Source: an uncultured Candidatus Binatia bacterium
GTDB taxonomy: Bacteria > Desulfobacterota > Binatia > UBA9968 > JAJDTQ01
Assembly: GCA_965242525.1 (NCBI GenBank)
Contig: OZ251459.1
Coordinates: 1,408,001 to 1,472,000 of the forward strand
Length of the DNA stretch: 64,000 nucleotides
Reading direction: 5' to 3'
Shown: positions 11,424 to 32,381 of the stretch, piece after piece
How positions within the stretch are numbered: the first letter of the stretch is position 1
Layout of the letters: every line of letters begins with the position of its first letter
Notes under the pieces: generated by a model
The model's database searches: none
Told to the model about the DNA's origin: nothing
The model's input: only the letters and a program-made list of their open reading frames with translations
Translations under genes and position numbers: made by a program

Positions 11424-14400
11424 TCATATAAGACGACCCTTAGCTACCGCAACCGTCCCTTCGACCACACCCCTTGCTTCCCGCTGTTCCTCTCGGTCCA
11501 GGATGTCCTTCAGCCTCTTGTCACCGGGCGGGGCGGGGGCGAGGAGGTTCGGGGGGTTGAACAGCGGGTTGCCCGGGGACCACAGTTCCACGCTCTCTGC
11601 GTTCTCCTCGTAATAGGCGGGGTCGGTGGTCACCCGGAGTCGTTGGGCCATGCCGGGGGCCAGCAGGCCGTATTCACGGCGGCCCAGGGGCTGCACGTCC
11701 GTGCCCGGGGGCATCAGGTCGGGGGAGGCGATGATCCGGTCCAGGTCGTCCAGGGTCACCGGCGACTGCGGCTGCGGGGGCACGGCCAGGGCGTCTTCCG
11801 TGACCGCGTCCATGTCGAACCCCCCTTCCCCGGCTTCACGGACCTGGCGGTGGATGGCCTCCACCAGGTCGGCCCGGCCCCGCTCGTCCCGGTCCGCGCC
11901 CGACAGCACCGCCTGCGAGATGGTCCGGGGCAGGCGGGCCAGGATCGGCTGCAGGCGGCCTACCACCGATTCGAACAGGCCAATGCGGTTTCGGAGCGCC
12001 CGGTGCACGTCGGTCTCCACCGTGCCTTCGTATTGCAGGTTGACGATGCGGATGGTCGGGTGCGCCTGCCCGAGACGATCGATGCGGCCGATGCGCTGCT
12101 CCACGCGCATGGGGTTCCAGGGCATGTCGTAGTTGACCAGGGCGCCGCAGAACTGGAAGTTCAGCCCCTCGGCCGCGGCGTCGGTGCACAGCAGCAGATC
12201 GACCTCGCCCTCGCGGAAACGCCGTTTGGCGTCGTCGCGGCCGATGCGCCGCCACCCGCCGTCCGCCCCGGGCAGCTCTCCGCCCCGCCCCGAAAAGCAC
12301 AGCAACCGCCAGTCCCCGCGCTCCCGCAGCGCCTCGCGCAGGAACTCCAGGGTGTCCACGTACTGGGTGAACACCATGGCCTGCCGGTAGTCCTGCTGAC
12401 GCAGGCCGGCCAGGACCTCGGTCAGGTGCGCCAGCTTGCCGTCCCGGGGCAGCGCCCGGACGCGTTCGAGCAGGCGTTCGATCTCCGTCCCTTCCTCCGC
12501 GGCCAGGGCCCGGCGCTCCAGGTCCGCCATCTCGTCCGCGTCGAGGATCTCGTCCACCGCCTCGTCGTCCGGCGCGTCCTCTTCGGTCCCGGCCGGCCGC
12601 CCTTCGCCGCCGTTCCGGATGGCGTCGAGGCGCCGTTCCAGCGTGACCCGGAGCGCCCGGAAGCTGCTCGCCAGCCGACGCCGGTAGATGGTCATCACGA
12701 ACCCCACCGCGGACCGCTCGGCCGCGGCGGCCCGGTCGTAGGTGCCGGAGATGTAGTCTTCCACCGCCCGGTAGAGATCCCTTTCCGCGGGGGTCATGGG
12801 GATGAACCGGTCCTCCACCTGCCGCCGGGCGATGGGGGTGGAGAGCAGGCCGGCCTCGAAGTAGCGGCGCAGCAGCTCCCGTGTGTGCCGGGACACCAGG
12901 CGCCGGATCGGGGTGTACGCGCGCATGACGCCCAGGGCCGCTTGGCGCTCCGCAGTCTCCAGTTGCCGGCGCGGGATGGTGGCCGCGCCCCGAAGCGCCC
13001 GGAGCACCTTGTCGGCCTTGAGCCGCGACAGTCCGGTGAGGCGCCGGACGTCCTCCCGGGCCGCCTTGCCGTAGTCGCGCTCCGCGGCCCGGAACAGCCG
13101 CGCCATGCGCTCGAACGCTTCCGGCGACGGGCTCGGGGCGTTGAGGTCGTCGAAGAACTCCAGGAAGGCCTCCGCGCTCCACTCCCGGGGCAGGCCCAGG
13201 AGGTGCAGCAGGTCCCAGACCTCCACCGGATGGACCTGCATGGGCGTGGCGGTGAGCAACAGCAGGCCCGGGGCGCGTTCCCCGAGCCGTTGCATCAGCC
13301 GGAGCAGCGCGTTGGGGCCGCCTTCGTTGGCGGCGCCGGGAGCGCGCCGGCGCGCGTGGTGGGCTTCGTCCAGCACCACCAGATCCCAGGGGCACCCGTC
13401 TTCCAGTAGCGCCTCGGCCCGTTCCCGCCGGCGCAGCAGATGGCTCGAAGCGATCACCGCGGGCTCTTCATGCCAACGCCGGGGCGCCGCCTCGCGCTCG
13501 TGGCCGCCCCGCAACGCCGGCGACGGATACCACGACAGCTTGTGGCCGTCGTAGATGGGCCAGTTCAGGTTGAACTTCTCCCGCAGCTCCGTCTGCCACT
13601 GCCCCAGCACCGCCTTGGGCGCCAGGACCAGTATGCGTTTCGCCTGCCCGGCCAGCCACGCCTGACGGAGCAGCAGCCCCGCCTGGATGGTCTTGCCGAG
13701 CCCCACCTCGTCCGCGATCAACAGCCTCGGAGGCCAGTGGTCGTAGAGGCGATGGAAGGCCCGCATCTGGTGCGGCCAGGGCGTCACCGCTGCGGTGGCC
13801 TCGCCCACTTGCGCGCCGCCGTCCGGCAGGGTGGGCGCGCGCCGGATGAAGCCCCATACCCTGCTTCGCAGGTCCGCGGGAGAGGCCGCGGGCGTCTCCG
13901 CGGACCGCTGAGACGAGGACCCCGGATCGGCCCACGGCGTCTCCCCGGTCTCCGGCGTCCCGGGCGTCTCATCCAGCACTCCCTTCAACCGCGCCGGCAA
14001 AGCGTCGTCCGCGGGCAGGAAACGCAGCAGGTCCCGCCGGGCCGCGTCCGGCACGTCGAGCACCATGAGCCGGGGGCTCCGCCCGGCCCAGATGCGCGCG
14101 AAGTTCTCGTCCTCCGCGGCCACCCGCTCCGGCTGCGGCCCCCAACTGGTGAACACGTTGATGCTCTCCCAGTTGGTGCGCCAGCCGGCCGGGGTCTCGT
14201 TCAGGCTGCCGTTCCAGGCGATGCGCTCGCCGGTGCGGTCTTCGACGACGCCGGCCTTCTCGTGGAATATGCCGTCGTCGCTCACCGGCGTTCCCTTGGC
14301 GTCGCAGGGCACCGCCACCTTCACGTCCAGGCAGCCACGGGCCACCATCCAGGCGAGCAACTCCAGGGCGCCGGAAGCCTCCGGGTCCGGCGGGGCCAGG

Positions 14401-14687
14401 GGAAGGCCGGCCAAGTGCGCCTCCACTTGCCGGCGCAACTCCTCTCCGCGCTCGATGGCCTCGACCTCGGGCCGGGCCAGGGTGCAGCCCACCAGCAGGC
14501 GCATGCGGCCGCGGTTGCGCACCAGCCCTTCGATGCCGCGCGCGGCCAGGGCAAGGGCGCCGGCGTGGAAATAGCCGGTCAGGCGGTCGTAGCGCTCGGC
14601 GTCTTCCAGCGCGGGGACGTAGAAGAGCCGCACCAGGTCGCCGTCGTCAGGCGTGTACTTGAGCTTCCATTCCCGGTCCCGAAGCAT
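11424..14687 (-). CDS. PLD-nuclease-SNF2 helicase fusion (RL-system component)
   Basis: N-terminal HKD motif FHEKAGVVED...GSLNET; SNF2 motifs ADEVGLGKT, LDEAHH, LTATP, TDAAAEGLNFQ, WNPMRVEQRIGRIDRLGQ. Confidence 0.92.
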   Translation of the reverse strand: MLRDREWKLKYTPDDGDLVRLFYVPALEDAERYDRLTGYFHAGALALAARGIEGLVRNRGRMRLLVGCTLARPEVEAIERGEELRRQVEAHLAGLPLAPPDPEASGALELLAWMVARGCLDVKVAVPCDAKGTPVSDDGIFHEKAGVVEDRTGERIAWNGSLNETPAGWRTNWESINVFTSWGPQPERVAAEDENFARIWAGRSPRLMVLDVPDAARRDLLRFLPADDALPARLKGVLDETPGTPETGETPWADPGSSSQRSAETPAASPADLRSRVWGFIRRAPTLPDGGAQVGEATAAVTPWPHQMRAFHRLYDHWPPRLLIADEVGLGKTIQAGLLLRQAWLAGQAKRILVLAPKAVLGQWQTELREKFNLNWPIYDGHKLSWYPSPALRGGHEREAAPRRWHEEPAVIASSHLLRRRERAEALLEDGCPWDLVVLDEAHHARRRAPGAANEGGPNALLRLMQRLGERAPGLLLLTATPMQVHPVEVWDLLHLLGLPREWSAEAFLEFFDDLNAPSPSPEAFERMARLFRAAERDYGKAAREDVRRLTGLSRLKADKVLRALRGAATIPRRQLETAERQAALGVMRAYTPIRRLVSRHTRELLRRYFEAGLLSTPIARRQVEDRFIPMTPAERDLYRAVEDYISGTYDRAAAAERSAVGFVMTIYRRRLASSFRALRVTLERRLDAIRNGGEGRPAGTEEDAPDDEAVDEILDADEMADLERRALAAEEGTEIERLLERVRALPRDGKLAHLTEVLAGLRQQDYRQAMVFTQYVDTLEFLREALRERGDWRLLCFSGRGGELPGADGGWRRIGRDDAKRRFREGEVDLLLCTDAAAEGLNFQFCGALVNYDMPWNPMRVEQRIGRIDRLGQAHPTIRIVNLQYEGTVETDVHRALRNRIGLFESVVGRLQPILARLPRTISQAVLSGADRDERGRADLVEAIHRQVREAGEGGFDMDAVTEDALAVPPQPQSPVTLDDLDRIIASPDLMPPGTDVQPLGRREYGLLAPGMAQRLRVTTDPAYYEENAESVELWSPGNPLFNPPNLLAPAPPGDKRLKDILDREEQREARGVVEGTVAVAKGRLI

Positions 14688-14690
14688 GGT

Positions 14691-17600
14691 TCAGCCGTCC
14701 TGGTCCTGCCACAGCCGCAACTGCTCGGGCTCGTCGATGCGGTCGCCGTAAGCGAGTCGGGATAGGTGGTAGAGGGTCTCGAAGTCGCTGCCCGAGGCCG
14801 CGGCCTCGCCCGGGAGGTCGATCCCGGTGAAGGCCCGTGAAACGGGAAGCACCTCCAACACCGCCTCCAGGGAAGCGAAGAAACGCGGGTCCCGGTCCAC
14901 TTGGGCCGCGGCCAGCATCCCGCGCGCCGCGTCCAGGGACCGGAGCCGGGCCAGGTTGGCGGCGTGGTGGATGGCGTCGATCATGCCGCGGGAGCCGTCC
15001 GCGGGACCCAGGGCGCCCTTGGCGGCCCGCCGGGCGCTGTCCCAGAGGCGGACCATGCTGCCCTTCTTCTCGGCGAGCCGGCCCACGACCTCCCCGTCCA
15101 GATCGACGCCCACCGCGCGGGCGAGCTTGAGCGCTTCGTCGTAGGAGAACGCGGGCGCACGGAAGGCGTGCCAGGACAGGACGAAGAAAGAGGTCGCGGG
15201 GTCGAGGTCGGCGTTGGCCTTGAGACGGGTCAGTCGTTCCAGGAGCCAGCGCTTGACCTCGCGCCGGGCTGCGTCCAGCGCGTCCTCCGGCGTTGCCGCG
15301 TAGGGGTCCCATTCCTCCTCGAACAACACCTGCTGGCGCCGACCCCGGCGCTCCGCGGGAAGCTCCCGCGGCGTGCCCCGCTTGAGGGGCCAGTGGCGCG
15401 AGAACTCCTCCAGCGCCGGCCCGAAGGAGGCCAGGTAGAGATCGACCCCGGTAATGCCCGCGTCCTGGAACTCGCCCACCCGCCGGCGCACCGCCTGCGC
15501 CACACGGGGCTCCACGTCCTCCCAGTACAGGTTCGGCTCGTCCCGCACCAGGAAGCTCTGGGTTCGTTCCACCGCCCGCGGACGGCAAACCAGGAAGATG
15601 GTGCTGTTGGCCGCGGCCTTGTCCTTGATGTGGAGGCTCCCCTCGGCCTCGGTGTTGACGGGCCACGAGGCGGTGATAGTGAAGCCCGACTCGATCAGCC
15701 CCTTGGTGAGCGCGTCCCAGGCCCCGGTGGCCTTGTGGGTGAACATGAGGGTCATGATCCCGTCCGGCTTCAGCACCCGGCGGCACTCCGCGAAAATAGC
15801 CGCCATCCGCTCCCGGTATTCCTGCCCGGCAAGCGCCCGCGCCCCCTTCTCTCCCCGGAACTTGGCCGGGTTGGCCACCGCCTCGTTCTCCTTGTCCGTG
15901 AGCTGCCGGCGGAACAGTTCGGGAAAGACGTGCCCCGCGGTGCGCTTGAGCCACACGTAGAAGAAGTCCGACAACTCCGCGTACATCACGTTGTCGTAGT
16001 AGGGCGGGTCCATGACCACCACGTCGATGGAGGCATCCATGAGATGGTCCAGGCTGTCGCCCGGCTTGCAGGTGATGGTGATCGGGGGTGGGTCGGAGGA
16101 GGGGGATCTGCTGTCGTCGTGGTCGATGAGGGCGGAGGGGCTGGTGTGGTGGCCGTGGCTGATGGGGGCGGAGGGGCTGGTACGGTGGCCGTGGCTGATG
16201 GGGGCGGGATGGCTGGTGCGGGCGGCGTGACTGGTGGAATCATTTTCTCTGGTGGGGTCAGGGCCGTCAATAGGGTTGGCGCGGCTGCTGCGAACGTCGC
16301 GGCCGGTAGAGTCGGGACGGCTGGCGCGGGCGGCGTAGCTAGTGGGGTTGCTGTGTTCGATGTGGTCGGCGTGATCGATGGGATCCGTGTGTTCGGTGCG
16401 CTTGGCGCTGGCTGCGCGGCCGGTGCTGTCGATGCCGTCGGTCTGGCCATTGTGCCCGGTCCGGCCGGTGTGGTTGATCCCGGCGAACAGATCGCCATCG
16501 CGGGCCGGGGCGTCGGGGCGGACGAGGGCGACGAGTTCGGCGATGCACTTGGCGGTCTGCCCGATGGCCCAGTCATAGCCGAGACCGGTGACCAAAGGGG
16601 CCATCTCGGCGTAGGACCACTTGAAGGAGAAGTCATGCCGGTCGAAGGTGTTGACCATGACCTCCCGATTCACGTGCCACCGGGTCATACGGGAGTTGTA
16701 ATCGCGTAGCTTGTCGAAGGACAGCGCGAGATACCCGTAAGCCGCCTTCTGGATCTCGCCCAACCGGCCCGCGGCCCGGTCGGCGTCGAGCATCTCCCGG
16801 AAGACCTCTACGCTCGTGCCGTGGCAGAGAAGCTGGCGAGGCGAGAACAGGTCGCGCCATTTCTTTACACCGTAGATTTTTGATCGGTCGCTATACATGT
16901 CGTCATAGTTTTCACTCGGCACGAAATCGAAGGCTTCCCACTCCGGCAGCCTCTCTTCGAGTCGCACTCGGACCTCGGCGCCGTTGTCGTCCTCGGGCCG
17001 CGGCGCCCGGTAGCCGCGGACCCACTTCTCGCGGATCCGCCCCGTCTTGGTCCTGACTTCGACCAGCTTCTTATAGACGACAGCGTAAAGCTGCTCTCCC
17101 ATCCTCCCGGCTTGCGCCTGTTCCTTGATCACGTCCCCGTCGATGATCCGCCCGCAATCCGGGTAGGGACAGTCGCCCGTCCCGTCCGAGACCGTGCCCG
17201 GCGATTGCTCCGCCACGGAATCCACCATGTCGAACGCGCACGTGCGGCTCTCCGATCCGGGACCGCCGCGGAGATGCGGCACGAGCCTGACCCCCGCGCC
17301 GCCCGGCGCCAGCCGCCAATTGGGAGAGAGCGGAACGAGCCCGTCGCAGTACGGGCAGGTGATGGTGCGCGCCCAGAGATAACCGTCCGGGCGGGTATGG
17401 TCCCCGGGCTCCTCCGGGAACACGCCGGCAAGACGTTCCCGGACCGTGCTCGTCAACCGGTTACCGAGTTCTTCCACGACGCTCTTCAGGGAAACGCCGA
17501 ATCCTGCAGGCCATTCGACCGTTGCGCGTTCGATCAAGGCAGCGACGGGATTCAGGTCGTTCGCCACGGTCTGCAACCCTGCCCGAACGGACTCGAACGG

Positions 17601-18008
17601 CACGCTCCCGCCGCCCGCCGTCGGATCGAGAACGACGGCATTGCTCACCGTGTTCTCGCGTAACCAATCCCTGTGATCATCGTCGGGTATGTAGCCGAAA
17701 GCCCGCGGGTAACCATACGCATCCGCACCCAGGCGTTCCCCCGTGCGGTTGGCCGCGGATATCCTCCTCTTCGCGGCCACAGGGTCGCCGTGAATCCCGA
17801 TCACGTGCAGGAACCGCTCCCGGTCCGCGTCCGCCGGCAGCAGGGACCCCAGCACCGCGGCCCGCGACGCCACCAGCGGACGCCGCGCCCACCAGACGTG
17901 CAGCCGGTTCGGCGCCGGGAACGGCGTCATCGGCGTCCGCTCGCGAATGCTCTCGATGCCAAGCGCCGCAATCGGCAACCACCGCTCGATCAGGCGGACG
18001 TCAGACAC
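14691..18008 (-). CDS. DUF1156 amino-methyltransferase (RL-system component) with in-frame repeat insertion
   Basis: Likely GTG start at 18008 (VSDVRLIERWLP...LHVWWARRPL); motif I DPTAGGGS, Zn-ribbon CPYC/CPYPDC, motif IV DPPYYDN. Confidence 0.9.
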   Translation of the reverse strand: MSDVRLIERWLPIAALGIESIRERTPMTPFPAPNRLHVWWARRPLVASRAAVLGSLLPADADRERFLHVIGIHGDPVAAKRRISAANRTGERLGADAYGYPRAFGYIPDDDHRDWLRENTVSNAVVLDPTAGGGSVPFESVRAGLQTVANDLNPVAALIERATVEWPAGFGVSLKSVVEELGNRLTSTVRERLAGVFPEEPGDHTRPDGYLWARTITCPYCDGLVPLSPNWRLAPGGAGVRLVPHLRGGPGSESRTCAFDMVDSVAEQSPGTVSDGTGDCPYPDCGRIIDGDVIKEQAQAGRMGEQLYAVVYKKLVEVRTKTGRIREKWVRGYRAPRPEDDNGAEVRVRLEERLPEWEAFDFVPSENYDDMYSDRSKIYGVKKWRDLFSPRQLLCHGTSVEVFREMLDADRAAGRLGEIQKAAYGYLALSFDKLRDYNSRMTRWHVNREVMVNTFDRHDFSFKWSYAEMAPLVTGLGYDWAIGQTAKCIAELVALVRPDAPARDGDLFAGINHTGRTGHNGQTDGIDSTGRAASAKRTEHTDPIDHADHIEHSNPTSYAARASRPDSTGRDVRSSRANPIDGPDPTRENDSTSHAARTSHPAPISHGHRTSPSAPISHGHHTSPSALIDHDDSRSPSSDPPPITITCKPGDSLDHLMDASIDVVVMDPPYYDNVMYAELSDFFYVWLKRTAGHVFPELFRRQLTDKENEAVANPAKFRGEKGARALAGQEYRERMAAIFAECRRVLKPDGIMTLMFTHKATGAWDALTKGLIESGFTITASWPVNTEAEGSLHIKDKAAANSTIFLVCRPRAVERTQSFLVRDEPNLYWEDVEPRVAQAVRRRVGEFQDAGITGVDLYLASFGPALEEFSRHWPLKRGTPRELPAERRGRRQQVLFEEEWDPYAATPEDALDAARREVKRWLLERLTRLKANADLDPATSFFVLSWHAFRAPAFSYDEALKLARAVGVDLDGEVVGRLAEKKGSMVRLWDSARRAAKGALGPADGSRGMIDAIHHAANLARLRSLDAARGMLAAAQVDRDPRFFASLEAVLEVLPVSRAFTGIDLPGEAAASGSDFETLYHLSRLAYGDRIDEPEQLRLWQDQDG
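16119..16478 (-). repeat. Degenerate 9-nt tandem array (~40 units) with a 36-nt higher-order repeat, inside the methyltransferase CDS
   Basis: Units such as gtggtcgat, ggggctggt, gtggctgat and gcggccggt; the 36-mer encodes PISHGH(R/H)TSPSA twice. Confidence 0.85.
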
Positions 18009-18012: not shown

Positions 18013-18750
18013 TCAAATCCATTCGCGGGGTTGTTGCGCCAGGACACCCTCGCCCAATACCCCGAAGTACGAGCGGGTGGCGGTGAAGAACCTGCGTAGA
18101 ACGCCGTCATGGTCCGGCAACAGGTTCCGGCGCGCCCACTGTTCCATCGCCGCGCCATGCGCGAAATCCCGCCAGCCTTCATCGAGCCGGCGTCTGTGTC
18201 TTTGCCGCGCCCTCTGCAATCGTTCGACGTTCAAGCCCAGGATCTCGATGGTTCGGCTTACCCGGCCCACCGCCACGCCGACTTGCCCGCAAGCCCTGTC
18301 GTCCGCCTCCATCCGGCCGTTGACGCGCACACGTATGAGCGACGGAAGCGCGGGAAGCGATCTGGGGTCGATGAAATCCGGATCCGTGTTGCCGCCCTTT
18401 GCCTGGCCGCAACTCCTGCCCGGGAATCGTTCGTCGTCGGCGCGGATCGACGCATCGTCCGACGATCCGCCCCGGCAGCAGGCGATCATGTTGGCGGCAT
18501 CGAAAGTGTGTTCGCGTCCGTATCGGGGATGGTTCCGGGGCACGACGTGTTCGACCTGCCGGTCAGCGCCCCGGATGTCGTTTTCGCAGTAGCCGCATAG
18601 CCCGTGTTGAAGGTTCACCAGGGTTTCGGCGAGCTGCCTGTAACGCTCCCCGCCGTGACGGTATCCCTGCCAGCTCGCATGGCCTTTGGCGCGGTCCAGG
18701 TATTCATCGAGACCGGGGACGGAGCCGGCGAATTCGCGGATGCGCTTCAC
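18013..18750 (-). CDS. ptuB: Septu/retron-type HNH endonuclease PtuB (copy 1)
   Basis: GTG start overlaps the ptuA stop; QHGLCGYCE, VEHVVP, NMIACC and SCGQAKG motifs. Confidence 0.8.
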   Translation of the reverse strand: MKRIREFAGSVPGLDEYLDRAKGHASWQGYRHGGERYRQLAETLVNLQHGLCGYCENDIRGADRQVEHVVPRNHPRYGREHTFDAANMIACCRGGSSDDASIRADDERFPGRSCGQAKGGNTDPDFIDPRSLPALPSLIRVRVNGRMEADDRACGQVGVAVGRVSRTIEILGLNVERLQRARQRHRRRLDEGWRDFAHGAAMEQWARRNLLPDHDGVLRRFFTATRSYFGVLGEGVLAQQPREWI

Positions 18751-20015: not shown

Positions 20016-20163
20016 GGTCGGTCCCCCTTCTCCTCCGTGGCATGGTCCGCGGGCTTCGCAGGGCCGTCAGCGCCCGGCGCGGGTGTTTGCGGCGCATCGC
20101 CATGCCGAGCCGGCAGGCCGCCGCCTCGCGGCCCATGGCCTCAGCGCCTTCGGCCACTGCATG
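20005..20163 (-). pseudogene. Decayed fragment homologous to the 3' end of the RL small gene (28848-29000)
   Basis: AVAEGAEAMGREAAACRLGMAMRRKHPRRALTALR aligns with SVAEGIEAMGREEAAYWLGMAMHRKNPRRVLTALR; the nucleotide similarity is also visible. Confidence 0.85.
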
Positions 20164-20252
20164 GATCTTGCCGTTGCTCCGATTGGCAACCACCACTCCA
20201 TAAGTTGAGTATCATGGCTGCCTCCCCGCGGCTCTGGTCATCGCTGCACCGT

Positions 20253-24995: not shown

Positions 24996-26353
24996 CGTTT
25001 GGCGCTCCGGGCAGATCCAGCCCCGGGCGAGGCGGAAGAAGCGCCGGATCGGCCGTACCGGACGCGCCACCAGTCTTCGAGTAGCCCCGACACGAAGCGG
25101 TAGCCGTCACCTTGCTTGGCCAGATACCCGTCGTGCTCCAGCACGTGGAGCACGTCTTCGATCAAGGGCGGGTCGGCCATGGTCTCGCCTGCAAGAGACT
25201 CGCTCTGCCTGACTTCACGGTCCAGGCCGCGGCGAACCTCACGTCGAACCCTGGCCTCGTCCGCAAGAGATTCGCCATACCGTCGGATGGCGTCGCTTGG
25301 CAGCCGACCGCGGTTGTTTGCAGCCTCGGTCAACATCTCCAGGGCGACCCGATACCCATCAACCCCGAGGACCATCCTCAATCGATCCTCGTAGTGCGGC
25401 AGGTCCGTCTGTCCCCGGATACCGAGCATCTCCCGGTCATAGACGCGCCCTACGTCTTCAAGGGAGGCGGCGCGCCGACCGGCCCGGCGCAGGTCCTCGT
25501 GAAGGACATCGAAGAACCTCTGCACGTGGTGGGGAACCTGACACCGAAGTCGCCGGCACATCTCCTGGCGGACGTCGAGGGGGAGGTCGATACGGTAGGT
25601 CTCCCCCAGAGCGCCGAGGCAGGCCATGGCGGTCTCCCTGTCCCAGGGCTTCAGGTCGAAAGGGGTGAAGATGTTCGCGTGGGCGCTGAGTCCGGCCTGT
25701 TGCAGGATGGGTTCGAGGCTCACGCTGCCGGAGAGGATCATGCAGACCCGGCCCTGATGCGCCTGGCCGTTCTTGCGAAGCCAACTCAGGAACTCATCCG
25801 CGGCCCGCCGACGCTCCGGCGTGATGCGGTAGTCGTCCCCCTTGAGCAACCGGTTGACGAGGATCGGCAGTTCGTCGATGGCGAGCGTCACCGGCCTTTC
25901 GTTCCCCGCCAGAGCCGCGAAGACCTCGTCGCCCTTCTGCCGCCAGTTGCCGGCATCGACCCCGGCGCGCAGCTTCATCCGCAAGTCTGCGCCAGCCAGT
26001 ACAGGAACTTGGCCGCCGACTTCGACCTCTGCCGGAAGGACATTGGCGAACAGGTCCCTGATCCGCTTCCAGGCGCCTTGCATCGTCCTCGACTGGAACC
26101 CGATCTCGGTGATGGCGTCTGCGGGGGTGGAGGCCCCCTCCAGATCAACGAAGACTGACTCGAAACTCCCCTCTTCCTTCAGCCGGCGCAACAGTTCCCG
26201 AACGAGGCTCGTCTTGCCCATGCGCCGTTGCGCAGTCAGCAGGGTATGGGCTCCGTCCCGAACCCGCTCCACAAGAGCCTCGATCTCGGCCTCTCGGTCG
26301 AAGAAGCGATCCCCTTCGACCCAGTTGCCGCCCGCCTTCCTGAGCGCCGCCAT
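24992..26353 (-). CDS. Uncharacterised AAA/STAND-like ATPase
   Basis: GNWVEGDRFFDRE, Walker A AQRRMGKTS, Walker B LAIDELP, ILSGS; C-terminal wHTH-like LEHDGYL...LLEDWW. Confidence 0.8.
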   Translation of the reverse strand: MAALRKAGGNWVEGDRFFDREAEIEALVERVRDGAHTLLTAQRRMGKTSLVRELLRRLKEEGSFESVFVDLEGASTPADAITEIGFQSRTMQGAWKRIRDLFANVLPAEVEVGGQVPVLAGADLRMKLRAGVDAGNWRQKGDEVFAALAGNERPVTLAIDELPILVNRLLKGDDYRITPERRRAADEFLSWLRKNGQAHQGRVCMILSGSVSLEPILQQAGLSAHANIFTPFDLKPWDRETAMACLGALGETYRIDLPLDVRQEMCRRLRCQVPHHVQRFFDVLHEDLRRAGRRAASLEDVGRVYDREMLGIRGQTDLPHYEDRLRMVLGVDGYRVALEMLTEAANNRGRLPSDAIRRYGESLADEARVRREVRRGLDREVRQSESLAGETMADPPLIEDVLHVLEHDGYLAKQGDGYRFVSGLLEDWWRVRYGRSGASSASPGAGSARSAKR

Positions 26354-26409: not shown

Positions 26410-26471
26410 ACAATCCGGGCGATGTCAACCACCCCGGAAGACCAACTCGGTCAACGACTGTCCGACGCCAC

Positions 26472-27230
26472 TCAGATCCATGCCTGGGGACGTTCCTCGA
26501 GGACGCGCTCGCTTGCGGAGCCGAAGTAGCTTCGGTTCGTGGTAAAGAACCTGGGCAAACGTCCGTTCTTCGGCAGAAGCTCCCCACGAGCCGCCTCTTC
26601 CATCACGGTAAGGTCCTCGGCGAAATCCTCCCACCCATCGCTGAGCGCTCTCCAGTGTCTTTCCCGGGCGTCTCGCAAACGTCTGACGTTCAACCCCAGG
26701 AATTCGATGGTGCGTTGCACACGATAGGCGGACACGCCGACAGCTTCACACGCCGGTACATCGGCTTCCATCCTCCCATTGACAATGACTCGGGTAAGTG
26801 AAGGGAGCGCGGGCAGGGTTCGGGGGTCGATGAGGTCATCGTTCACCTGACCGCCCTTCTTCTGGCCGCAACTCTGATGGCGTCGCACCGGTTCACGATA
26901 CCGAGTTTCATCGGCCAACCGGTTGCTGCCATATGCGCCTTCCGTCCCGCCCTTGCAGCAGGCGATCATGTTGGTGACGTCCAGCGCCCTCAGTGCCCCC
27001 ACCGGGTCGCTTCGGGGAACCCAATGCTCGACCTGACGATCCAACTCGGTGAGGTCGATCTCACAGTACCCGCAAAGACCGTGCTGAAGGTCGGTCAGTC
27101 CGTCCAGCAGCTCTTTATGGGAACCCCCTGCATCGTGGGAACGGAATTCCCCCCATTCCGGGTCGCGCACATGATCGAGGTAATCCCTGAGCCCCGGAGC
27201 AGGCTCATGCAAGGCTCGGATGCGTTTCAT
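26472..27230 (-). CDS. ptuB: Septu/retron-type HNH endonuclease PtuB (copy 2)
   Basis: QHGLCGYCE, VEHWVP, NMIACC and SCGQKKG motifs; clear paralog of 18013-18750. Confidence 0.8.
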   Translation of the reverse strand: MKRIRALHEPAPGLRDYLDHVRDPEWGEFRSHDAGGSHKELLDGLTDLQHGLCGYCEIDLTELDRQVEHWVPRSDPVGALRALDVTNMIACCKGGTEGAYGSNRLADETRYREPVRRHQSCGQKKGGQVNDDLIDPRTLPALPSLTRVIVNGRMEADVPACEAVGVSAYRVQRTIEFLGLNVRRLRDARERHWRALSDGWEDFAEDLTVMEEAARGELLPKNGRLPRFFTTNRSYFGSASERVLEERPQAWI

Positions 27231-28504
27231 CTCGATTTTCCCATGCGGGCCAGCAATGAACGCCGTCTTATTTCGACGTCCGCCCGGTCGAGGGCATGGT
27301 CGCGGGGCGAAAGGTTCTCCAACTCCCTCCTGAGCGTCAGGGCTTCTTCCGATTCGCCTTCGTCGTCGCTGACGAGCCGCATGTACCGTTCCAGGGTTTT
27401 CGTGAATTCGTTGCCGGACGGACGCTGGTCCGTCCCCATCACCGAGGAGAGGACCACGCCCGCTTCTGCGCCATAGGTTGCCGAGGCAGGGGAACCGGCG
27501 ACGACACGGCCATCCTCTTCACGGACCAGCTCCACGATACGTTCCGGCTTGACCGTGGTCAGTACCTGCGGGCTGTGGGTGGAGACGATGAACTGTGCGT
27601 TCGGGAACGTCCGGGTGAGGTCGTCCAGTATCCGCTGCTGCCAGGAAGGATGCAGGTGCAGATCGACTTCGTCGATGAGAACCACCGCCTCGGATTCGAG
27701 AGGGTTGTCGAGATGTGGATTCCCTTGCGCCATCCGCCAAGCCAGGTCGGCCGCGAGGGCAAGCACCGCGCGATAGCCTCCGCTCAACTGGTCGAGAGCC
27801 AGTTTCTCGCTCTTCCGTCCCGTTCTCACGGACACCACGAACCGAGGCGGGTCCATCTCTATATGGGGTTCAGATACGTCGTCGAGCATGGAGGAGATCG
27901 CACGACGGAGGTTGGACAACTCGTCGAGCTGGTAACCGAAGTCACGCCGCTCCCTCTGTTCTCTCAACTCCTCGTTTTCCTTGAAATAGAACCACTCGAA
28001 CAACCCCTGGAAGTTCGTGCGTGACGAAAGCGCCCCCTTGAAGGCGTCGTATCGGTTCAGGTCCTTCCTGAAATCGGACCACCGCTCCGTCTGATCGAAG
28101 ATGACACGGTCGGTGTCGTAGAAGGCAACGATGGGAAACTCGACCCGCCGCCCAGCCTCGTGATCGCTGACGATTTCATCCGTTCTGTCTTTCAAGGCGC
28201 TGGTGTATTCTCGTTGCGCCGGTTGTCCTTTGGCTACGGTTCCGGACCAGGAAATACCTTCGACCGTGGTGAGGGCGACGTGTAAATCCGACGCGCCCAC
28301 ACGCAAATCGGTATCGAGAAGACCTCTCTCGGAGACGTTGGCAAACAGGTGGGGAATGGCGCCGAGCCCGGCTGCGACCGCGCCCAGAACGCTCGTCTTC
28401 CCGTGTGCGTTGGCGCCATGCAGAACCGTGAGCCGCGGGTCGAGCGTCAAGGCGAGCTTATCGACCGCACGGAAGTTCTCGATCTCCACCGATGCCAGCT
28501 TCAT
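27227..28504 (-). CDS. ptuA: Septu-type ATPase PtuA (copy 2)
   Basis: GANAHGKTS, LSGG, LIDEVDLHLHPSWQQ, STHSP; paralog of 18747-20015. Confidence 0.82.
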   Translation of the reverse strand: MKLASVEIENFRAVDKLALTLDPRLTVLHGANAHGKTSVLGAVAAGLGAIPHLFANVSERGLLDTDLRVGASDLHVALTTVEGISWSGTVAKGQPAQREYTSALKDRTDEIVSDHEAGRRVEFPIVAFYDTDRVIFDQTERWSDFRKDLNRYDAFKGALSSRTNFQGLFEWFYFKENEELREQRERRDFGYQLDELSNLRRAISSMLDDVSEPHIEMDPPRFVVSVRTGRKSEKLALDQLSGGYRAVLALAADLAWRMAQGNPHLDNPLESEAVVLIDEVDLHLHPSWQQRILDDLTRTFPNAQFIVSTHSPQVLTTVKPERIVELVREEDGRVVAGSPASATYGAEAGVVLSSVMGTDQRPSGNEFTKTLERYMRLVSDDEGESEEALTLRRELENLSPRDHALDRADVEIRRRSLLARMGKSR

Positions 28505-28531
28505 GGTCCCGACCCTTTCCCCTGGCCGAGT

Positions 28532-28726
28532 TCACTTTCCGAGACGACCGAGTTTGTTCAGGAGATGGTAGGACATGTCCTGGACCGTCACGTGGCAGGG
28601 ATTGAACGACCTGTCGCCGCAGCCCTCGGACTTGGCGGATACCGATGCCACGTTCTGGAAGGCGATGACGCAAAGCGCCAGCGCGATGACCGTCAACACG
28701 ACCTTGCTGTAGAGATCCAGTTTCAT
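28532..28726 (-). CDS. Small single-TM/secreted hypothetical protein (64 aa)
   Basis: GGAGG RBS; MKLDLYSKVVLTVIALALCVIAFQN hydrophobic helix; Cys pair CGDRSFNPC. Confidence 0.65.
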   Translation of the reverse strand: MKLDLYSKVVLTVIALALCVIAFQNVASVSAKSEGCGDRSFNPCHVTVQDMSYHLLNKLGRLGK

Positions 28727-28847: not shown

Positions 28848-29342
28848 TCATGCGAAGCCCCCCCTCCTCCGCGGCTCCGTCAGCAGGAAGCGCAGCGCGG
28901 TGAGCACCCGGCGGGGGTTCTTGCGGTGCATGGCCATGCCGAGCCAGTAGGCGGCCTCTTCGCGTCCCATGGCTTCGATGCCTTCGGCCACCGACCGCAT
29001 GTTGTCGCGGCTTCGCATGGGAGCAAGCGTGCGGAACAGCAACCCCAGCGTCAACGCCAGATCCTCGTCCAGGGCGTAGCCCCGTTTCCGGGCGTCCGCA
29101 TCCAGGCCGAGCCTGACGCCGGACTGCGCCAGCCGTTTCAGCAACCGGTGCTCCACCAGTTCGAGGTTGCGGCCCCGAAGCCCGGCCACGCGCGCCGCGG
29201 AGGTCACCTGCGGCGTGGCGGCCGCGGGCATCCGCCAGACCTCGTATTCCGCGTCCGCGGGACCGTGGCGGCGCACCCGCAACTCGTACCGGGGGGCCGA
29301 TTCCGGCGTGTCGATCTGGGCGATCCTCTCCAACCGCGCCAT
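28848..29342 (-). CDS. Small RL-system protein in the DUF3780-equivalent position
   Basis: 164 aa; ATG directly abuts the DUF499 stop; C-terminal helix MGREEAAYWLGMAM...RVLTALR; family name inferred from position. Confidence 0.7.
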   Translation of the reverse strand: MARLERIAQIDTPESAPRYELRVRRHGPADAEYEVWRMPAAATPQVTSAARVAGLRGRNLELVEHRLLKRLAQSGVRLGLDADARKRGYALDEDLALTLGLLFRTLAPMRSRDNMRSVAEGIEAMGREEAAYWLGMAMHRKNPRRVLTALRFLLTEPRRRGGFA

Positions 29343-32300
29343 CTATGCCTTCGCTTCCGCGGTGGCCGACACGTAGGCGGCGCCGCTGGCGAACCGCGCC
29401 AACCGCTGGGTCATCTTCTCCGGGGCGTCGCCCTGCATGGGCAGTCCCTCGGCGAAGGTCAACTCGAAACCCACTTCCATGGTCTGGGAGGCGGCGTCGC
29501 GAAGCTGGGCTTCGAGGAACTCCCGCACCGGCTGGGCGTCCGACACCGGCCCCCGGAACTCCAACTGGAACGAGCCGCGGTCACGGGTTTCGTACCCGCC
29601 GACGAGGGTCACCAGCTTGTCCGCGCCGGAAACGGCGCCCACCGCTCCCATCAGCCGAAAGGCGTCCCCGGCCTCGAACAGACGGATGGCGAGGACCGCG
29701 ACCTTCTCGATCTTCCGGGCGCGGGCCTGTTCCCAGAGCTTGGCCAAGGCTTCCTCGAGCAGGCCTTCGGCCGACAGGACGCCGGGAGGCGGTTCTTCCA
29801 CCCTGCCAGCGCCGTCCCCCGGAAGAGTCACATACGTTGTTTCCCTTTCCCGGTCCGTGTCCTTTCCGGCAGGGTCGGCGGCAGGCCGGCGGGGCGTCTC
29901 CGGTTCCGGCCGCGGCCAGATCCCCTTCTCCACCGCATAAGCCATGGTGAAGACCATGGACTGCTCATCCACGGCGATGGTGGGCAACGGGTCGCCGGGA
30001 CCGCACAGCAGGTCGCCGCGCTGATAGACGTATTCCCCCCGCTCGATGCCGCGCAGGATGCCGCGGATGAAGATATCGTCGCCCACCAGGATGGGCAGCG
30101 CCGGGTCCCGGCGGAACTCGTCGCGCAACGCGAGGGTCGTGATCTGCCCCTTGCGGAGCGGCGTGCGGTCGCGCACGTACGCGGGAGAGTCCGGCTCGTC
30201 CTCGGCAAGGCGGAGTTTCGACAGGTCCCGGAGGGCGCGCACGACTTGCCGTTGTCCCGAGCCGGGGCGGTCCGAGGTCGATTGCACGTCGATGGCCGAG
30301 TGCGCCAGATCGACGTTGCTCGCGCCGATGCGGTTCCGCGACGGGTAGAAGACGTGGCGGTAGCACTGCTGGACGGCCAGGGCCAACTCCTGCTCGGAAC
30401 GGGCTTCCAGTTCGCGGATCTTGTCCTGCTGGTACTCCGCGAGGTCCACCAGCCGCTCGGGCTTCTTCAGGTCCTGCAACGCCAGCCGCCGCTGGGACTT
30501 GCGCCGCATCTCCTCCTTGCGGGCGTCGTCCGCGGCCAGGAACACCAGGTTGTTGCGCAGCGTCCGCAGCGCAGAGCCTTCCGAACCCTTGCGGGAGTGG
30601 ATGCGTTCGATCAACTCGGGAACGCTCTCCACCGCGCTGCCGATGGCCACGCCGTCGTAGGCGAGCACCACCAGCCTGGGGCGGCCGTCGCCCACCTCGT
30701 CGGGGGCGTCGAAGGGGCCGCCCGGGAACGTTACGGCCTCGAAGGCGCCGCCCGCGCCGCCGCCGAAGATGCCGCGGATGCAGTCGTCCAGGTGGGCGCG
30801 GGTCTCGCCGGCGTCCACGTGCTGTTCCTGGCGCCGGATGATCTGGCTCAGGTTGGCTTCGGCGAGGAAGCGCATGGGCGCGCCGGGCCGGTCGTCGAGG
30901 TAGGCGGATTCCGCGACGAACTTCCGGCGCGCCTCCTCCACGAAGCTCAGGTCCAGGCCCGGGGCCAGCATGGAGTAGCGCAACTGGTGGGGAGACAGGC
31001 CCTTGAGGGGGTCGTTGAACGCGAGGGTGTGCATGAAGATCGTGCGCGCCACGTATGCGGCGTAGGGCGGCAGGCCCCGGTGGTGCTCGACGTCCATCTC
31101 CTCGGCCAGCGCCCTCTTGTCCGCGCCCGCCACGTCGTTGGCCATGGCCGGCAGGTATGCGGTCTGGCCGAGACGGGTGACGATCTCTTGCCGGATGGGC
31201 TCGTGGCCCGGGTCCATGTGGTGGAGATGGATCGCCGCGGCGTCCGCGGGCCGCTGCCGCCACAGGTGGGCGATGGTGCGGGCCAGCAGCCGCAGCATCC
31301 CGCGCACGCGCTGGAAGTTGCCCAGGGTTGCGGTCTTGGCCGTCAGGGTTCCCAGCACCTCGGGATGCAGCGGGTAGCTCCAGCGGAACGCCTCGGTGGT
31401 CTCGGGGCGCCCGGCGTCGCCGGACAGCGCCTCGCCGCCGGCGCTCCAAATCTCGCGGTACGCTGCGACGACCGAAGCGGCCCGGGAATCGTCGATGGCT
31501 TCGAACAGGCGCCGGCGCAGCACCTGCGCGGTCTCGTCCTCTTCCGTGGGGTTGAGCAGCGTGGCCTTGCGCGCGGAGACGCTCTCGGCTTCGGCCAGGC
31601 GGTCGGCGATGAACTGGTTCTCCGCACCGTAGGCATCCCCGGCGCGTCCGTCCTTGCCGATGGCCAGGGTATAGACGAGAGTCGCGTTGGGCGCTCCCTC
31701 CACCGCCTTGAACAGCGAGGTCAGGAACGCGGTCAACTGGTCGTGGGCGCCGTCGAACCGGCGCACCTTGCGCAGATACACCGAGAGCTCGTCGAGCAGG
31801 ACCAGGGTGGGTTCGCCCCCGAAGAGCTCCCGCAGGGTTTCGGCGCCCGGCGCCGCCCGATGCTCGTCGCTGGCGCGGACCCGTTCGTACCCTTCCCGCC
31901 CGGCGAGGGCGTAAGCGATCTCTCCCCAGGGCGTGCACGCCAGCACGCCATCGCCCATGGCCCGCCCGTTGGCGGGGTCCGCGTTCTCGCCGTCGAAGGC
32001 GGCGACCCGGACCGGGGCTTGCGGCAGCAGCGCAGGATCCACGAACTCGCCCGCGTCGGCCACGCCGGCCATGCCCCGGGCGGCATGGGTCAAGGCGATG
32101 AGGCCGTGGGTCTTGCCGCCGCCGTACGATGTGTCGAGCCGGAAGATCGCGGCGGCCTCGCCGCCCTTGCCGGTCAACCGCCGGCACACGTTGGCGAGCA
32201 GGTTCCTGATCCCCCTGGTGGGGTAGGTGTTGGCGAAGAAGCGGACCGGGTCCCGGTATTCGGCACTACCCTTCCCCACCACCACCTGGGCCAAGTCCGC

Positions 32301-32381
32301 GGCGAAGTCGGCTTCGGCAACGGTGCCGGTGAGGACGTCCTCCCGCGGGCGGCAGGTATCGAATATGGTCGGGACCGTCAT
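29343..32381 (-). CDS. DUF499 AAA+ ATPase (RL-system component)
   Basis: PREDVL...FAADL, FFANTYPT, Walker A TSYGGGKTH, Walker B LVLLDEL, YPLHP, FQRVRGMLRLLA. Confidence 0.92.
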   Translation of the reverse strand: MTVPTIFDTCRPREDVLTGTVAEADFAADLAQVVVGKGSAEYRDPVRFFANTYPTRGIRNLLANVCRRLTGKGGEAAAIFRLDTSYGGGKTHGLIALTHAARGMAGVADAGEFVDPALLPQAPVRVAAFDGENADPANGRAMGDGVLACTPWGEIAYALAGREGYERVRASDEHRAAPGAETLRELFGGEPTLVLLDELSVYLRKVRRFDGAHDQLTAFLTSLFKAVEGAPNATLVYTLAIGKDGRAGDAYGAENQFIADRLAEAESVSARKATLLNPTEEDETAQVLRRRLFEAIDDSRAASVVAAYREIWSAGGEALSGDAGRPETTEAFRWSYPLHPEVLGTLTAKTATLGNFQRVRGMLRLLARTIAHLWRQRPADAAAIHLHHMDPGHEPIRQEIVTRLGQTAYLPAMANDVAGADKRALAEEMDVEHHRGLPPYAAYVARTIFMHTLAFNDPLKGLSPHQLRYSMLAPGLDLSFVEEARRKFVAESAYLDDRPGAPMRFLAEANLSQIIRRQEQHVDAGETRAHLDDCIRGIFGGGAGGAFEAVTFPGGPFDAPDEVGDGRPRLVVLAYDGVAIGSAVESVPELIERIHSRKGSEGSALRTLRNNLVFLAADDARKEEMRRKSQRRLALQDLKKPERLVDLAEYQQDKIRELEARSEQELALAVQQCYRHVFYPSRNRIGASNVDLAHSAIDVQSTSDRPGSGQRQVVRALRDLSKLRLAEDEPDSPAYVRDRTPLRKGQITTLALRDEFRRDPALPILVGDDIFIRGILRGIERGEYVYQRGDLLCGPGDPLPTIAVDEQSMVFTMAYAVEKGIWPRPEPETPRRPAADPAGKDTDRERETTYVTLPGDGAGRVEEPPPGVLSAEGLLEEALAKLWEQARARKIEKVAVLAIRLFEAGDAFRLMGAVGAVSGADKLVTLVGGYETRDRGSFQLEFRGPVSDAQPVREFLEAQLRDAASQTMEVGFELTFAEGLPMQGDAPEKMTQRLARFASGAAYVSATAEAKA

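What the first reader, a model, noticed from the sequence alone, without database searches (positions are those of the whole stretch)
11424..32381. Restriction-like (DUF499/DUF1156/SNF2) operon acting as a cargo hotspot, with ~10.8 kb of other defence modules stacked inside it
Seen: the four backbone genes are split 2+2. Between the small gene (ends 28848) and the methyltransferase (starts 18008) lie ten co-oriented genes plus a gene fragment, mostly joined by overlaps or gaps of 5 bp or less. The last cargo gene ends 4 bp before the methyltransferase start, and no integrase, transposase or att site is visible. Known: DUF499 + DUF3780 + DUF1156 + PLD/SNF2 is the Gao et al. restriction-like system; PtuAB is Septu; DUF262 + DUF3696 ATPase + effector is the Menshen architecture. 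Inference: the gene2-gene3 junction is a variable slot that collects defence cassettes under one transcription unit. Conserved flanks like these could be used to mine new defence systems.
Basis: partly seen in the sequence, partly recalled or inferred. Interest (0 to 1): 0.85.

Follow-up and report, generated by a model that had tools for sequence, protein, structure and literature searches.

The report
Defence operon stuffed with extra defences
A four-gene anti-phage operon (Hma type) carries about 10.8 kb of other defence modules between its second and third genes; this cargo slot is real and highly variable, but it has already been described in print, so this is a large example of a known thing.

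Summary
On the minus strand, DUF499 ATPase and a small gene (29343-32381, 28848-29342) are separated from the DUF1156 methylase and PLD/SNF2 helicase (14691-18008, 11424-14687) by Septu-1, a pair of STAND-like ATPases, Menshen (NsnABC) and Septu-2, plus one small ORF and a gene remnant. One correction: the small gene is DUF7680, not DUF3780.

The slot is hypervariable. In 55 related loci with both flanks held, it measures 14 bp to 9.9 kb, with 36 gene orders. The other two backbone junctions have median gaps of 4 and 6 bp. Same-genus genomes all differ in this slot.

The idea is not new. Payne et al. 2024 (bioRxiv 10.1101/2024.01.29.577857) and Liu et al. 2024 (PMC11232893) describe Hma as an embedding hotspot and mine it for new defences. 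This scan has also met it before on other DNA.

What this locus adds:
- A scar at 20005-20215, where a methylase 5' remnant is joined to a DUF7680 3' remnant. It indicates the stack grew by recombination between two Hma operons, not through an integrase.
- A decayed STAND gene that has lost its TPR array.
- Two recurrent cargo cassettes in relatives that no defence library names.

Co-transcription was not testable.

The parts
29343..32381 (-). Backbone gene 1: DUF499 AAA+ ATPase (HmaC-like)
   Evidence: PF04465 E 5e-34. PADLOC HmaC E 2.6e-99. NCBIfam DUF499_antiphage scores 201 bits, below its 1200 cut-off.
28848..29342 (-). Backbone gene 2: small DUF7680 protein; its 3' end is the left edge of the slot
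   Evidence: PF24728 E 1e-44. 3058 homologues, many 78-99% identical. No DUF3780 hit, and hhalign to DUF3780 gives probability 0.9%.
28532..28726 (-). Small ORF (64 aa, hydrophobic N-terminal stretch) in the 344-nt spacer
   Evidence: GGAGGAGG lies before the ATG. 85% aa identity in G023. No family hit. Function unknown.
27227..28504 (-). Septu-1 PtuA (ABC ATPase)
   Evidence: PADLOC PtuA E 7e-115. 59% identical to PtuA2.
26472..27230 (-). Septu-1 PtuB (HNH nuclease)
   Evidence: PADLOC PtuB E 2e-55. 4-nt overlap with PtuA1.
24992..26353 (-). ATPa: P-loop ATPase, first gene of a STAND-like pair; the start is uncertain because the ORF is open up to 26587
   Evidence: AAA_22/AAA_16/ATPase_2 hits. 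No PADLOC family beyond a weak mad8 hit. Homologues align from residue 54-81 onward.
23460..24995 (-). ATPb: STAND-type NTPase with a winged helix, and an in-frame loss of about 545 aa (the TPR array)
   Evidence: AAA_16 and TrmB wHTH hits. Aligns to residues 17-420 and 967-1076 of the 1077-aa L006 homologue, whose middle part is TPR repeats. ATGA overlap with ATPa.
22364..23455 (-). Menshen NsnA (DUF262/GmrSD_N)
   Evidence: PADLOC NsnA E 1e-109 and PF03235. The ATG lies 4 nt after the ATPb stop.
21226..22380 (-). Menshen NsnB (ABC ATPase with DUF3696)
   Evidence: PADLOC NsnB E 1.6e-102 and PF12476.
20253..21224 (-). Menshen NsnC
   Evidence: PADLOC NsnC E 1e-108.
20180..20215 (-). Scar, part 1: degenerate remnant of a methylase 5' end (about codons 1-13)
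   Evidence: Local alignment to methylase nt 7-40 of L066 scores 18. Shuffles average 11.0 (sd 1.7), and 1 of 300 reaches 18. G023 has a clean methylase start at the same place after NsnC.
20005..20179 (-). Scar, part 2: 3' remnant of a second DUF7680 gene (about codons 108-164), ending in the usual ATGA overlap with PtuA
   Evidence: 66% aa identity, E 8e-19. 74% nt identity over 163 nt. The join to the methylase remnant lies at a CCAATCG/CCCATGCG microhomology.
18747..20015 (-). Septu-2 PtuA
   Evidence: PADLOC PtuA E 2e-121.
18013..18750 (-). Septu-2 PtuB
   Evidence: PADLOC PtuB E 3e-53. The alignment with PtuB1 starts at the GTG at 18750.
14691..18008 (-). Backbone gene 3: DUF1156 N6-adenine methylase (HmaB-like); its 5' end is the right edge of the slot
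   Evidence: PF06634 E 5e-15. PADLOC HmaB E 1e-68. The GTG start lies 4 nt after the PtuB2 stop.
11424..14687 (-). Backbone gene 4: PLD-like nuclease fused to an SNF2 helicase (HmaA / PLD_Helicase-like)
   Evidence: SNF2-rel_dom and Helicase_C hits. PLDc_2 scores 24.5 bits, below its 27 cut-off. PADLOC gives BrxH 8e-82, PLD_Helicase 3e-64 and HmaA 8e-57.

Best explanation
This is an Hma-type (DUF499-centred, BREX-related) restriction-modification-like operon. Its DUF7680|methylase junction serves as the cargo slot already described for Hma systems.

The slot holds four independent defence modules in the operon's orientation: Septu-1, a STAND-like ATPase pair whose sensor gene has lost its TPR array, Menshen, and Septu-2.

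The cargo has no mobility genes. Cassettes abut the conserved 3' end of DUF7680 and the conserved 5' end of the methylase, often with overlapping stop and start codons. They are exchanged by recombination between Hma operons that carry different cargo.

In this locus, a left part and a right part were joined at a short microhomology:
- Left: DUF499-DUF7680-small ORF-Septu-1-STAND pair-Menshen-methylase start.
- Right: DUF7680 end-Septu-2-methylase-helicase.
The join left a methylase-5'/DUF7680-3' scar. The most economical route is one homologous crossover in the left flank plus one illegitimate join. A deletion between two tandem operons would give the same product.

What is shown: the gene content, the slot's variability, the scar, and the lack of mobility genes.
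What is inferred: the defence activity of each module, co-transcription from the DUF499 promoter, and the recombination route.
For: Gene families.

Slot variability:
- 80 loci were kept of 308 confirmed relatives.
- 55 hold both flanks.
- The slot is 31 bp or less in 6, 153-156 bp in 2, 439-836 bp in 3, and 1.4-9.9 kb in 44.
- There are 36 ORF-level gene orders.

Specificity:
- DUF499->DUF7680 has a median gap of 4 bp (n=78, 4 above 100 bp).
- Methylase->helicase has a median gap of 6 bp (n=39, 8 above 100 bp).

Same genus:
- 10 of 27 other genomes have the gene.
- The six fetched all carry different cargo.
- The closest, G023 (DUF7680 94% identical), lacks Septu-1 and carries an IetAS-like pair.

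Cargo elsewhere includes Septu, Menshen, HEC-01, PDC-M38/M68/M03/S01, IetAS and type II RM with Vsr.

Junctions are seamless, with PtuA's ATG overlapping the DUF7680 stop, and the methylase 5' DNA is conserved.

The scar.

Similar remnants in other loci (91 sequences examined):
- DUF7680 3' remnants at E<=1e-3 in the window and L011, L014, L027, L032, L044, L094, L096, L101.
- Methylase 5' remnants at E<=1e-3 in L021, L027, L028, L032, L058.
- In L027, L028 and L032 the remnant sits 14 nt after PtuB.
- In L021, L032 and L096 it sits just upstream of a DUF499 gene.

Mobility and assembly:
- No integrase, tRNA or att repeat.
- The two Septu copies share at most 79% nt identity over 299 nt.
- Contigs from two other studies bridge NsnC-scar-PtuA2: X4 record 17 with 0 differences and X6 record 26.
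Against: - No expression data exist, so one transcription unit is only an inference. Gaps of 118 and 237 nt and one promoter-like site at 26428-26399 allow internal promoters.
- The 80 loci are the closest relatives of one small gene. Many are MAGs, not an unbiased sample.
- The count of 36 gene orders is inflated by noisy ORF calling in high-GC DNA.
- The window's methylase remnant is short and degenerate, and tblastn did not find it. G023's scar differs, so it may be an independent event or a secondary deletion.
- Remnants in other loci are joined to varied partners (NsnA or NsnB 5' ends, a ParE-like gene). No single route explains all of them.
- IS110 transposase is present in one slot (L012), so mobile elements contribute sometimes.
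- ATPb is truncated, so not every module is likely to work.
Confidence: 0.85

Rival explanations
1. Functional super-operon. The embedded modules are not passive cargo. They would be wired to Hma as back-up effectors or sensors that fire when Hma is inhibited, as PrrC does inside a type I RM locus. Selection would then act on the combination.
For: - All cargo genes are co-oriented. PtuB2 ends 4 nt before the methylase start, and ATPb ends 4 nt before NsnA.
- Septu is the commonest known partner here, in 13 of 55 slots.
- Payne et al. raise this possibility in their Discussion.
Against: - Each module occurs alone, in other orders or not at all in close relatives.
- 8 of 55 loci have an empty slot.
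- One module here is decayed.
- Nothing was tested for protein contacts.
Confidence: 0.25
2. Insertion by a mobile element. The 10.8 kb would have arrived as an integrative element or transposon that targets this site.
For: - Cargo G+C is lower than the flanks.
- One related slot holds an IS110 transposase (L012).
- Payne et al. report 3.1% mobility genes among embedded genes.
Against: - The window's cargo has no integrase, transposase or relaxase family.
- There is no tRNA.
- The only direct repeats are the paralogous gene segments.
- The borders fall inside coding sequence, with start and stop overlaps.
Confidence: 0.05
3. Assembly artefact. The contig would be a chimera joined across the two ptuAB copies or across two strains' Hma loci.
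For: - The sequence comes from a metagenome-derived genome.
- Several related Hma variants co-exist in the same runs: many contigs at 90-99% likeness.
Against: - PtuA copies are 59% and PtuB copies 52% identical in protein. The best nt repeat is 79% over 299 nt.
- Short contigs bridge NsnC-scar-PtuA2 in runs of two other studies. Others bridge the DUF7680-spacer-PtuA1, PtuA1-PtuB1-ATPa and NsnA-NsnB junctions.
- G023 has the same ATPb-NsnABC-PtuA order.
Confidence: 0.03

Closest known systems
Hma systems with embedded defences (Payne et al. 2021; Payne, Hughes, Fineran, Jackson 2024, bioRxiv 10.1101/2024.01.29.577857; outline, Hma passages and Discussion read)
   Same: - A helicase/methylase/ATPase operon with other defences nested between its genes.
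- Septu is the commonest guest.
- Cargo is co-oriented.
- Few mobility genes are present.
- The flanks are used to discover new systems.
   Different: This slot holds ten ORFs in four modules.
- They do not address how embedding arises beyond a 'genomic sink'. Here scars point to recombination between Hma operons.
- The small DUF7680 gene is not part of their three-gene definition.
Halomonas meridiana Hma insertion hotspot (Liu et al. 2024, PMC11232893; passages read)
   Same: - Septu, PARIS, Ppl and unknown pairs are inserted within hmaABC.
- About 66.5% of hma loci have insertions.
- The region is called a defence insertion hotspot.
   Different: - That clade has a helicase with a PD-(D/E)XK nuclease, and its insertions lie between hmaA and hmaB and between hmaB and hmaC.
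- The helicase here is PLD-fused.
- Here the slot is specifically DUF7680|methylase.
Type-2 DUF499-centred BREX-related systems (NAR 2026, PMC12839542; passages read)
   Same: The layout matches: DUF499 ATPase, a small standalone gene, a DUF1156 N6-methylase, and an HKD/PLD-helicase fusion.
   Different: - Their small gene is DUF3780, present in 98% of taxa. Here it is DUF7680, with no detectable homology (hhalign probability 0.9%) and a different order of strands and helices in the models.
- The same genome holds a separate true DUF3780 system.
Integrons and other cassette platforms (recalled, as an analogy only)
   Same: Conserved flanks, a single orientation, and stacked promoter-less cassettes that vary between close relatives.
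   Different: - There is no integrase and no attC/attI.
- The borders lie inside coding sequence.
- Exchange appears to use ordinary homologous and illegitimate recombination.

Membership tests
Hma / DUF499-centred BREX-related system | DUF499 AAA+ ATPase | tested here: met
   PF04465 E 5e-34. PADLOC HmaC E 2.6e-99.
Hma / DUF499-centred BREX-related system | DUF1156-type N6 methylase | tested here: met
   PF06634 E 5e-15. PADLOC HmaB E 1e-68.
Hma / DUF499-centred BREX-related system | Helicase fused to a nuclease domain | tested here: met
   SNF2 and Helicase_C hits, with PADLOC HmaA 8e-57 and PLD_Helicase 3e-64. The PLD domain itself scores 24.5 bits, below Pfam's 27 cut-off.
Hma / DUF499-centred BREX-related system | Anti-phage activity | not testable with these tools
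   Needs a phage challenge.
Type-2 BREX-related system (PMC12839542) | Standalone DUF3780 gene in the core locus | tested here: not met
   No PF12635 hit in the window. DUF7680 occupies the position. hhalign probability is 0.9%.
Gao-type DUF499/DUF1156/PLD system (NCBIfam NF042962-NF042964 equivalogs) | Scores above the curated equivalog cut-offs | tested here: not met
   201, 215 and 353 bits against cut-offs of 1200, 1000 and 1100. It is a relative, not an equivalog.
Septu (PtuAB) | Adjacent PtuA ABC ATPase and PtuB HNH nuclease | tested here: met
   Two pairs, with PADLOC E values of 7e-115/2e-55 and 2e-121/3e-53 and 4-nt overlaps.
Menshen (NsnABC) | DUF262 protein, DUF3696 ABC ATPase and NsnC in a row | tested here: met
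   PADLOC E values of 1e-109, 1.6e-102 and 1e-108.
STAND / Avs-like NTPase defence | NTPase with a C-terminal repeat sensor, plus an effector | tested here: not met
   The window's ATPb lacks the TPR array that its 1077-1234-aa homologues have. No effector domain was found. There is no PADLOC or NCBIfam family.
Integron or integrative element | Recombinase gene and repeated attachment sites at cassette borders | tested here: not met
   None found.

The most novel reading that the evidence does not exclude
Hma operons may act as recombinase-free cassette platforms. The conserved last ~200 nt of DUF7680 and first ~200 nt of the methylase would serve as handles, letting whole defence cassettes be swapped between Hma loci of unrelated bacteria. 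The backbone is 65-86% identical in MAGs titled as different phyla.

When one end joins illegitimately instead of by homology, the incoming cassette is added rather than exchanged. Stacks would then grow stepwise and keep dated scars.

Breakpoints seen here are confined to DUF7680 codons 95-164 and methylase codons 1-65.

If this holds, the scars give a readable history of cassette gain. The two unnamed recurrent cassettes would then be strong new defence candidates: the STAND ATPase pair with a TPR sensor, and a three-gene set ending in an MBL-fold protein.
Probability: 0.4. Interest if true: 0.6.

Novelty: new member of a known kind. Interest (0 to 1): 0.35.

Why it matters
The general point is already established and in use: defence genes nest inside Hma, and the flanks can be used to find new ones.

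This locus adds three things:
- Stacks can reach four modules and about 11 kb, beyond the limits of the published search. Wider windows would recover more cargo.
- The locus and its relatives carry physical scars that say how embedding happens, a question the published work leaves open.
- The related slots nominate two recurrent cassettes for testing that no defence library names.

Tried and rejected
- **RNA evidence.** No RNA holder is listed, so co-transcription stays open.
- **Joints in laid contigs.** The 'joints' have sides of 30 nt or less at 90% likeness. The tool warns that such joints often come from other organisms, so I did not use them as evidence of cassette loss.
- **Promoter and terminator scan.** It found 9 terminator-like sites against 13.0 expected, and 4 promoter-like sites against 1.5 expected. 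This is not informative.
- **ATPb tail as a third gene.** I first read the separate hit to ATPb residues 422-535 in other loci as a third gene fused by deletion. ORF lists and Pfam show one long STAND protein instead, so the window copy has an internal in-frame loss.
- **DUF7680 fold.** The model has pLDDT 63. Foldseek against PDB gave nothing at E<=0.001; the best hints were short Whirly/Pur-alpha-like sheets. No function is drawn from this.
- **Dropped remnant hits.** L024 and L038 were weak (E>0.03). L044 15154-15342 lies in an NsnB P-loop region. Methylase hits cut by locus ends are real genes, not remnants (L002, L029, L033, L038, L050, L076).
- **PtuA 5' trace.** A possible trace after the full DUF7680 stop (ATGAAG at about 28850) is too short to count.
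- **Not run.** No complex prediction was run.

Full report
**Observation**

All relevant genes lie on the minus strand.

- Pfam and PADLOC identify DUF499/HmaC (29343-32381) and a 164-aa DUF7680 protein (28848-29342).
- After 10.8 kb come a DUF1156 methylase/HmaB (14691-18008) and a PLD-like/SNF2 helicase (11424-14687).
- The interval holds, in order:
  - PtuA1/PtuB1 (Septu)
  - two P-loop ATPases, which I call ATPa and ATPb
  - NsnA/B/C (Menshen)
  - PtuA2/PtuB2 (a second Septu)
- All score at PADLOC E-values of 1e-53 to 1e-121, except the ATPase pair, which matches no defence family.
- A 64-aa ORF with a strong ribosome-binding site sits in the 344-nt spacer after DUF7680. It is 85% conserved in the closest genome.
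- The methylase GTG lies 4 nt after PtuB2's stop.
- Best starts give overlaps or gaps of 0-4 nt inside modules, and 121, 27, 118, 4, 237 and 4 nt between modules.
- The cargo has no integrase or transposase family, no tRNA and no att-like repeat.
- Cargo G+C is 0.58-0.66 against about 0.70 outside. GC3 is 0.68-0.82 in cargo against 0.89-0.90 in the backbone.

The small gene is DUF7680, not DUF3780.

**Is the junction a variable slot?**

- I aligned 27 DUF7680 proteins and scanned one genome per species.
- Of 569 pattern matches, 308 encode a relative, and the best 80 loci were kept with 10 kb on each side.
- tblastn with the window's proteins gave these outcomes:
  - 55 loci have a full DUF7680 and a methylase start downstream.
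  - 8 run off a contig end.
  - 17 show no methylase start within 10 kb. Four of these have methylase-helicase upstream on the other strand.
- Among the 55, the slot length is:
  - 14-31 bp in 6
  - 153-156 bp in 2
  - 439-836 bp in 3
  - 1.4-9.9 kb in 44
- ORF-level gene orders number 36. This count is inflated by ORF calling in high-GC DNA.
- Module counts among the 55:
  - Septu in 13
  - Menshen (at least NsnA+B) in 9
  - the ATPase pair or ATPb in 7
  - a three-gene cassette ending in an MBL-fold protein in 14
- PADLOC on 50 representatives of the remaining ORFs found HEC-01, PDC-M38, PDC-M68, PDC-M03, PDC-S01, IetAS, a type II methylase with Vsr, and capP-like and TIR-like proteins.
- Pfam added TIR, SLOG, Hsp70-like and MORC-like proteins, and one IS110 transposase.
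- The other backbone junctions are tight:
  - DUF499->DUF7680 has a median gap of 4 bp (n=78; 4 above 100 bp).
  - Methylase->helicase has a median gap of 6 bp (n=39; 8 above 100 bp, maximum 1.8 kb).
- In the window's own genus, 10 of 27 other genomes have a match. The six I fetched all differ.
- The closest, G023 (DUF7680 94% identical, DUF499 91%, helicase 89%), carries:
  - the small ORF
  - an ATPa remnant
  - the same short ATPb
  - NsnABC
  - a 73%-identical PtuA
  - an S8-protease/AAA pair on the other strand
- G023 has no Septu-1.

**Assembly**

- The two Septu copies are 59% and 52% identical in protein. The best nucleotide repeat between them is 79% over 299 nt.
- Eleven public runs hold part of the stretch, and none is RNA.
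- Laid contigs from runs of two other studies bridge NsnC-scar-PtuA2: X4 record 17 (20061-20566, no differences) and X6 record 26 (19950-20907).
- Other contigs bridge DUF7680-spacer-PtuA1, ATPa-PtuB1-PtuA1 and NsnB-NsnA.
- X1-X3 may be the source and are not independent.

A chimera is unlikely.

**How the cargo got there**

- Cassette borders are seamless. In many loci PtuA's ATG overlaps the DUF7680 stop (ATGA), and the methylase 5' DNA is nearly the same across loci.
- In the window, NsnC's stop is followed by:
  - a 37-nt spacer shared with G023
  - then 36 nt that align to methylase nt 7-40, scoring 18 against 11.0 (sd 1.7) in shuffles, with 1 of 300 reaching 18
  - then DUF7680 codons ~108-164
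  - then PtuA2
- The join lies at CCAATCG/CCCATGCG.
- G023 has a clean methylase start at the same place.
- The locus therefore reads as two Hma operons fused:
  - one carrying small ORF-Septu-1-ATPase pair-Menshen
  - one carrying Septu-2
- A survey of 91 sequences found DUF7680 3' remnants at E<=1e-3 in eight further loci: L011, L014, L027, L032, L044, L094, L096, L101.
  - Seven of the nine remnants, counting the window's own, start at codons 95-112.
  - L032's remnant is an internally deleted gene.
- The survey found methylase 5' remnants at E<=1e-3 in L021, L027, L028, L032 and L058, with weaker ones in L003 and L096.
  - In L027, L028 and L032 the remnant sits 14 nt after PtuB.
  - In L021, L032 and L096 it sits just upstream of a DUF499 gene.
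- L096 looks like an unfused tandem: remnant-Septu-ATPase pair-methylase remnant, then a complete Hma with Menshen.
- Partners at the joins vary, so these are several illegitimate events, not one site-specific reaction.
- My reading is that cassettes move by homologous exchange in the conserved flanks, and stacks form when one end joins illegitimately. This is inference.

**The ATPase pair**

- Full-length relatives of ATPb are 1077-1234 aa: AAA_16 NTPase, a winged helix, then a long TPR array.
- The window's ATPb aligns to residues 17-420 and 967-1076 of the L006 protein.
- About 545 aa, the whole TPR array, are missing in frame. G023 shares this loss. The module is probably decayed.
- Neither protein matches PADLOC v2 or NCBIfam above noise.

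**Comparison with what is known**

- Payne et al. 2024 report embedded genes in 931 of 1485 Hma systems, with Septu the usual guest. They used 'guilt-by-embedding' to validate seven systems.
  - They allowed at most three embedded genes per junction.
  - They offer only the 'genomic sink' idea for origin.
- Liu et al. 2024 call the Halomonas hma region an insertion hotspot.
- A 2026 NAR paper renames these DUF499-centred BREX-related systems. Its Type-2 has an HKD-helicase and a standalone DUF3780.
- Here DUF3780 is not met:
  - The window has no PF12635 hit.
  - The same genome has a true DUF3780 system elsewhere, with a PIN cargo gene in the analogous slot.
  - hhalign between the two small-gene families gives probability 0.9%.
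  - The models differ in element order.
- NCBIfam equivalogs of the Gao-type proteins score far below their cut-offs.
- Earlier notes of this scan had already filed Hma cargo slots as known.
- None of the passages I read describes the scars or a recombination route. Payne's supplements were not visible to me.

**Verdict**

The locus is real and the slot is a genuine hotspot, but the concept is published. This is a large, well-preserved example.

It adds mechanistic traces and points to two unnamed recurrent cassettes in relatives.

Co-transcription and defence activity remain untested.

Noticed in passing
L112 11186-19812 and L113 2331-4778 (G000:C1:2583001-2618000): The same genome holds a second, distant DUF499 system (26-30% identity). 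Its order is DUF499 with Fn3-like domains, a true DUF3780, a PIN+DUF3775 gene in the analogous slot, a DUF1156 methylase, about 2.5 kb more, then the SNF2 helicase.
   Followed up: partly
e.g. L051 10493-12893; L001 10705-13203; L042 10484-12896: The commonest cargo in this Hma clade is a three-gene cassette of about 2.4 kb, seen in 14 of 55 slots. Two of its proteins match no family in Pfam, PADLOC or NCBIfam. The third is an MBL-fold protein with weak LmuA/Avs1a-like hits. It is a candidate unnamed defence system.
   Followed up: partly
L006 13112-17559; L095 11066-15836: The full-length form of the window's ATPase pair is a ~420-aa P-loop ATPase plus a 1077-1234-aa NTPase-wHTH-TPR protein. 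In every occupied slot seen it is the cassette next to the methylase. No defence library used here holds it.
   Followed up: partly
window 32434-32476: A short element in the DUF234-DUF499 intergenic region shows very high summed contig depth in all four laid runs, with many loose ends at its borders. It is probably a dispersed repeat.
   Followed up: no
window 10732-11411: A PIN-domain gene with a possible HicB-like partner lies directly downstream of the helicase. A PIN gene (87% identical) also follows the helicase in G023.
   Followed up: no
window 26399-26428: The best promoter-like site of the region (TTGACA, 18 nt, AACAAT) lies in the 118-nt gap between PtuB1 and ATPa. It is a possible internal promoter.
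   Followed up: no
L057, L062, L063, L079: In four loci the methylase-helicase pair lies upstream of DUF499 on the opposite strand. The operon can therefore also be split into two divergent units.
   Followed up: no
L024, L025, L052, L061, L065, L066 (methylase-helicase junction): There is a minor second slot. Between 0.5 and 1.8 kb is inserted between methylase and helicase in some loci (8 of 39 have a gap above 100 bp).
   Followed up: no
L001-L080 record titles: DUF7680 is 65-86% identical in MAGs titled as Binatia, Vicinamibacterales, Latescibacterota, Alpha- and Gammaproteobacteria, Entotheonella and others. This fits recent transfer of the backbone across phyla. A laid sponge-metagenome run (X6) holds pieces at about 97-98% identity.
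   Followed up: partly
L092 17841-19937 and L093 395-1477 (G023): The closest relative's slot ends with an S8 protease and an AAA ATPase on the opposite strand (IetAS-like), where the window has PtuB2. The methylase N-half is only 70% identical while its C-half is 92% identical, which looks like a recombination tract.
   Followed up: partly
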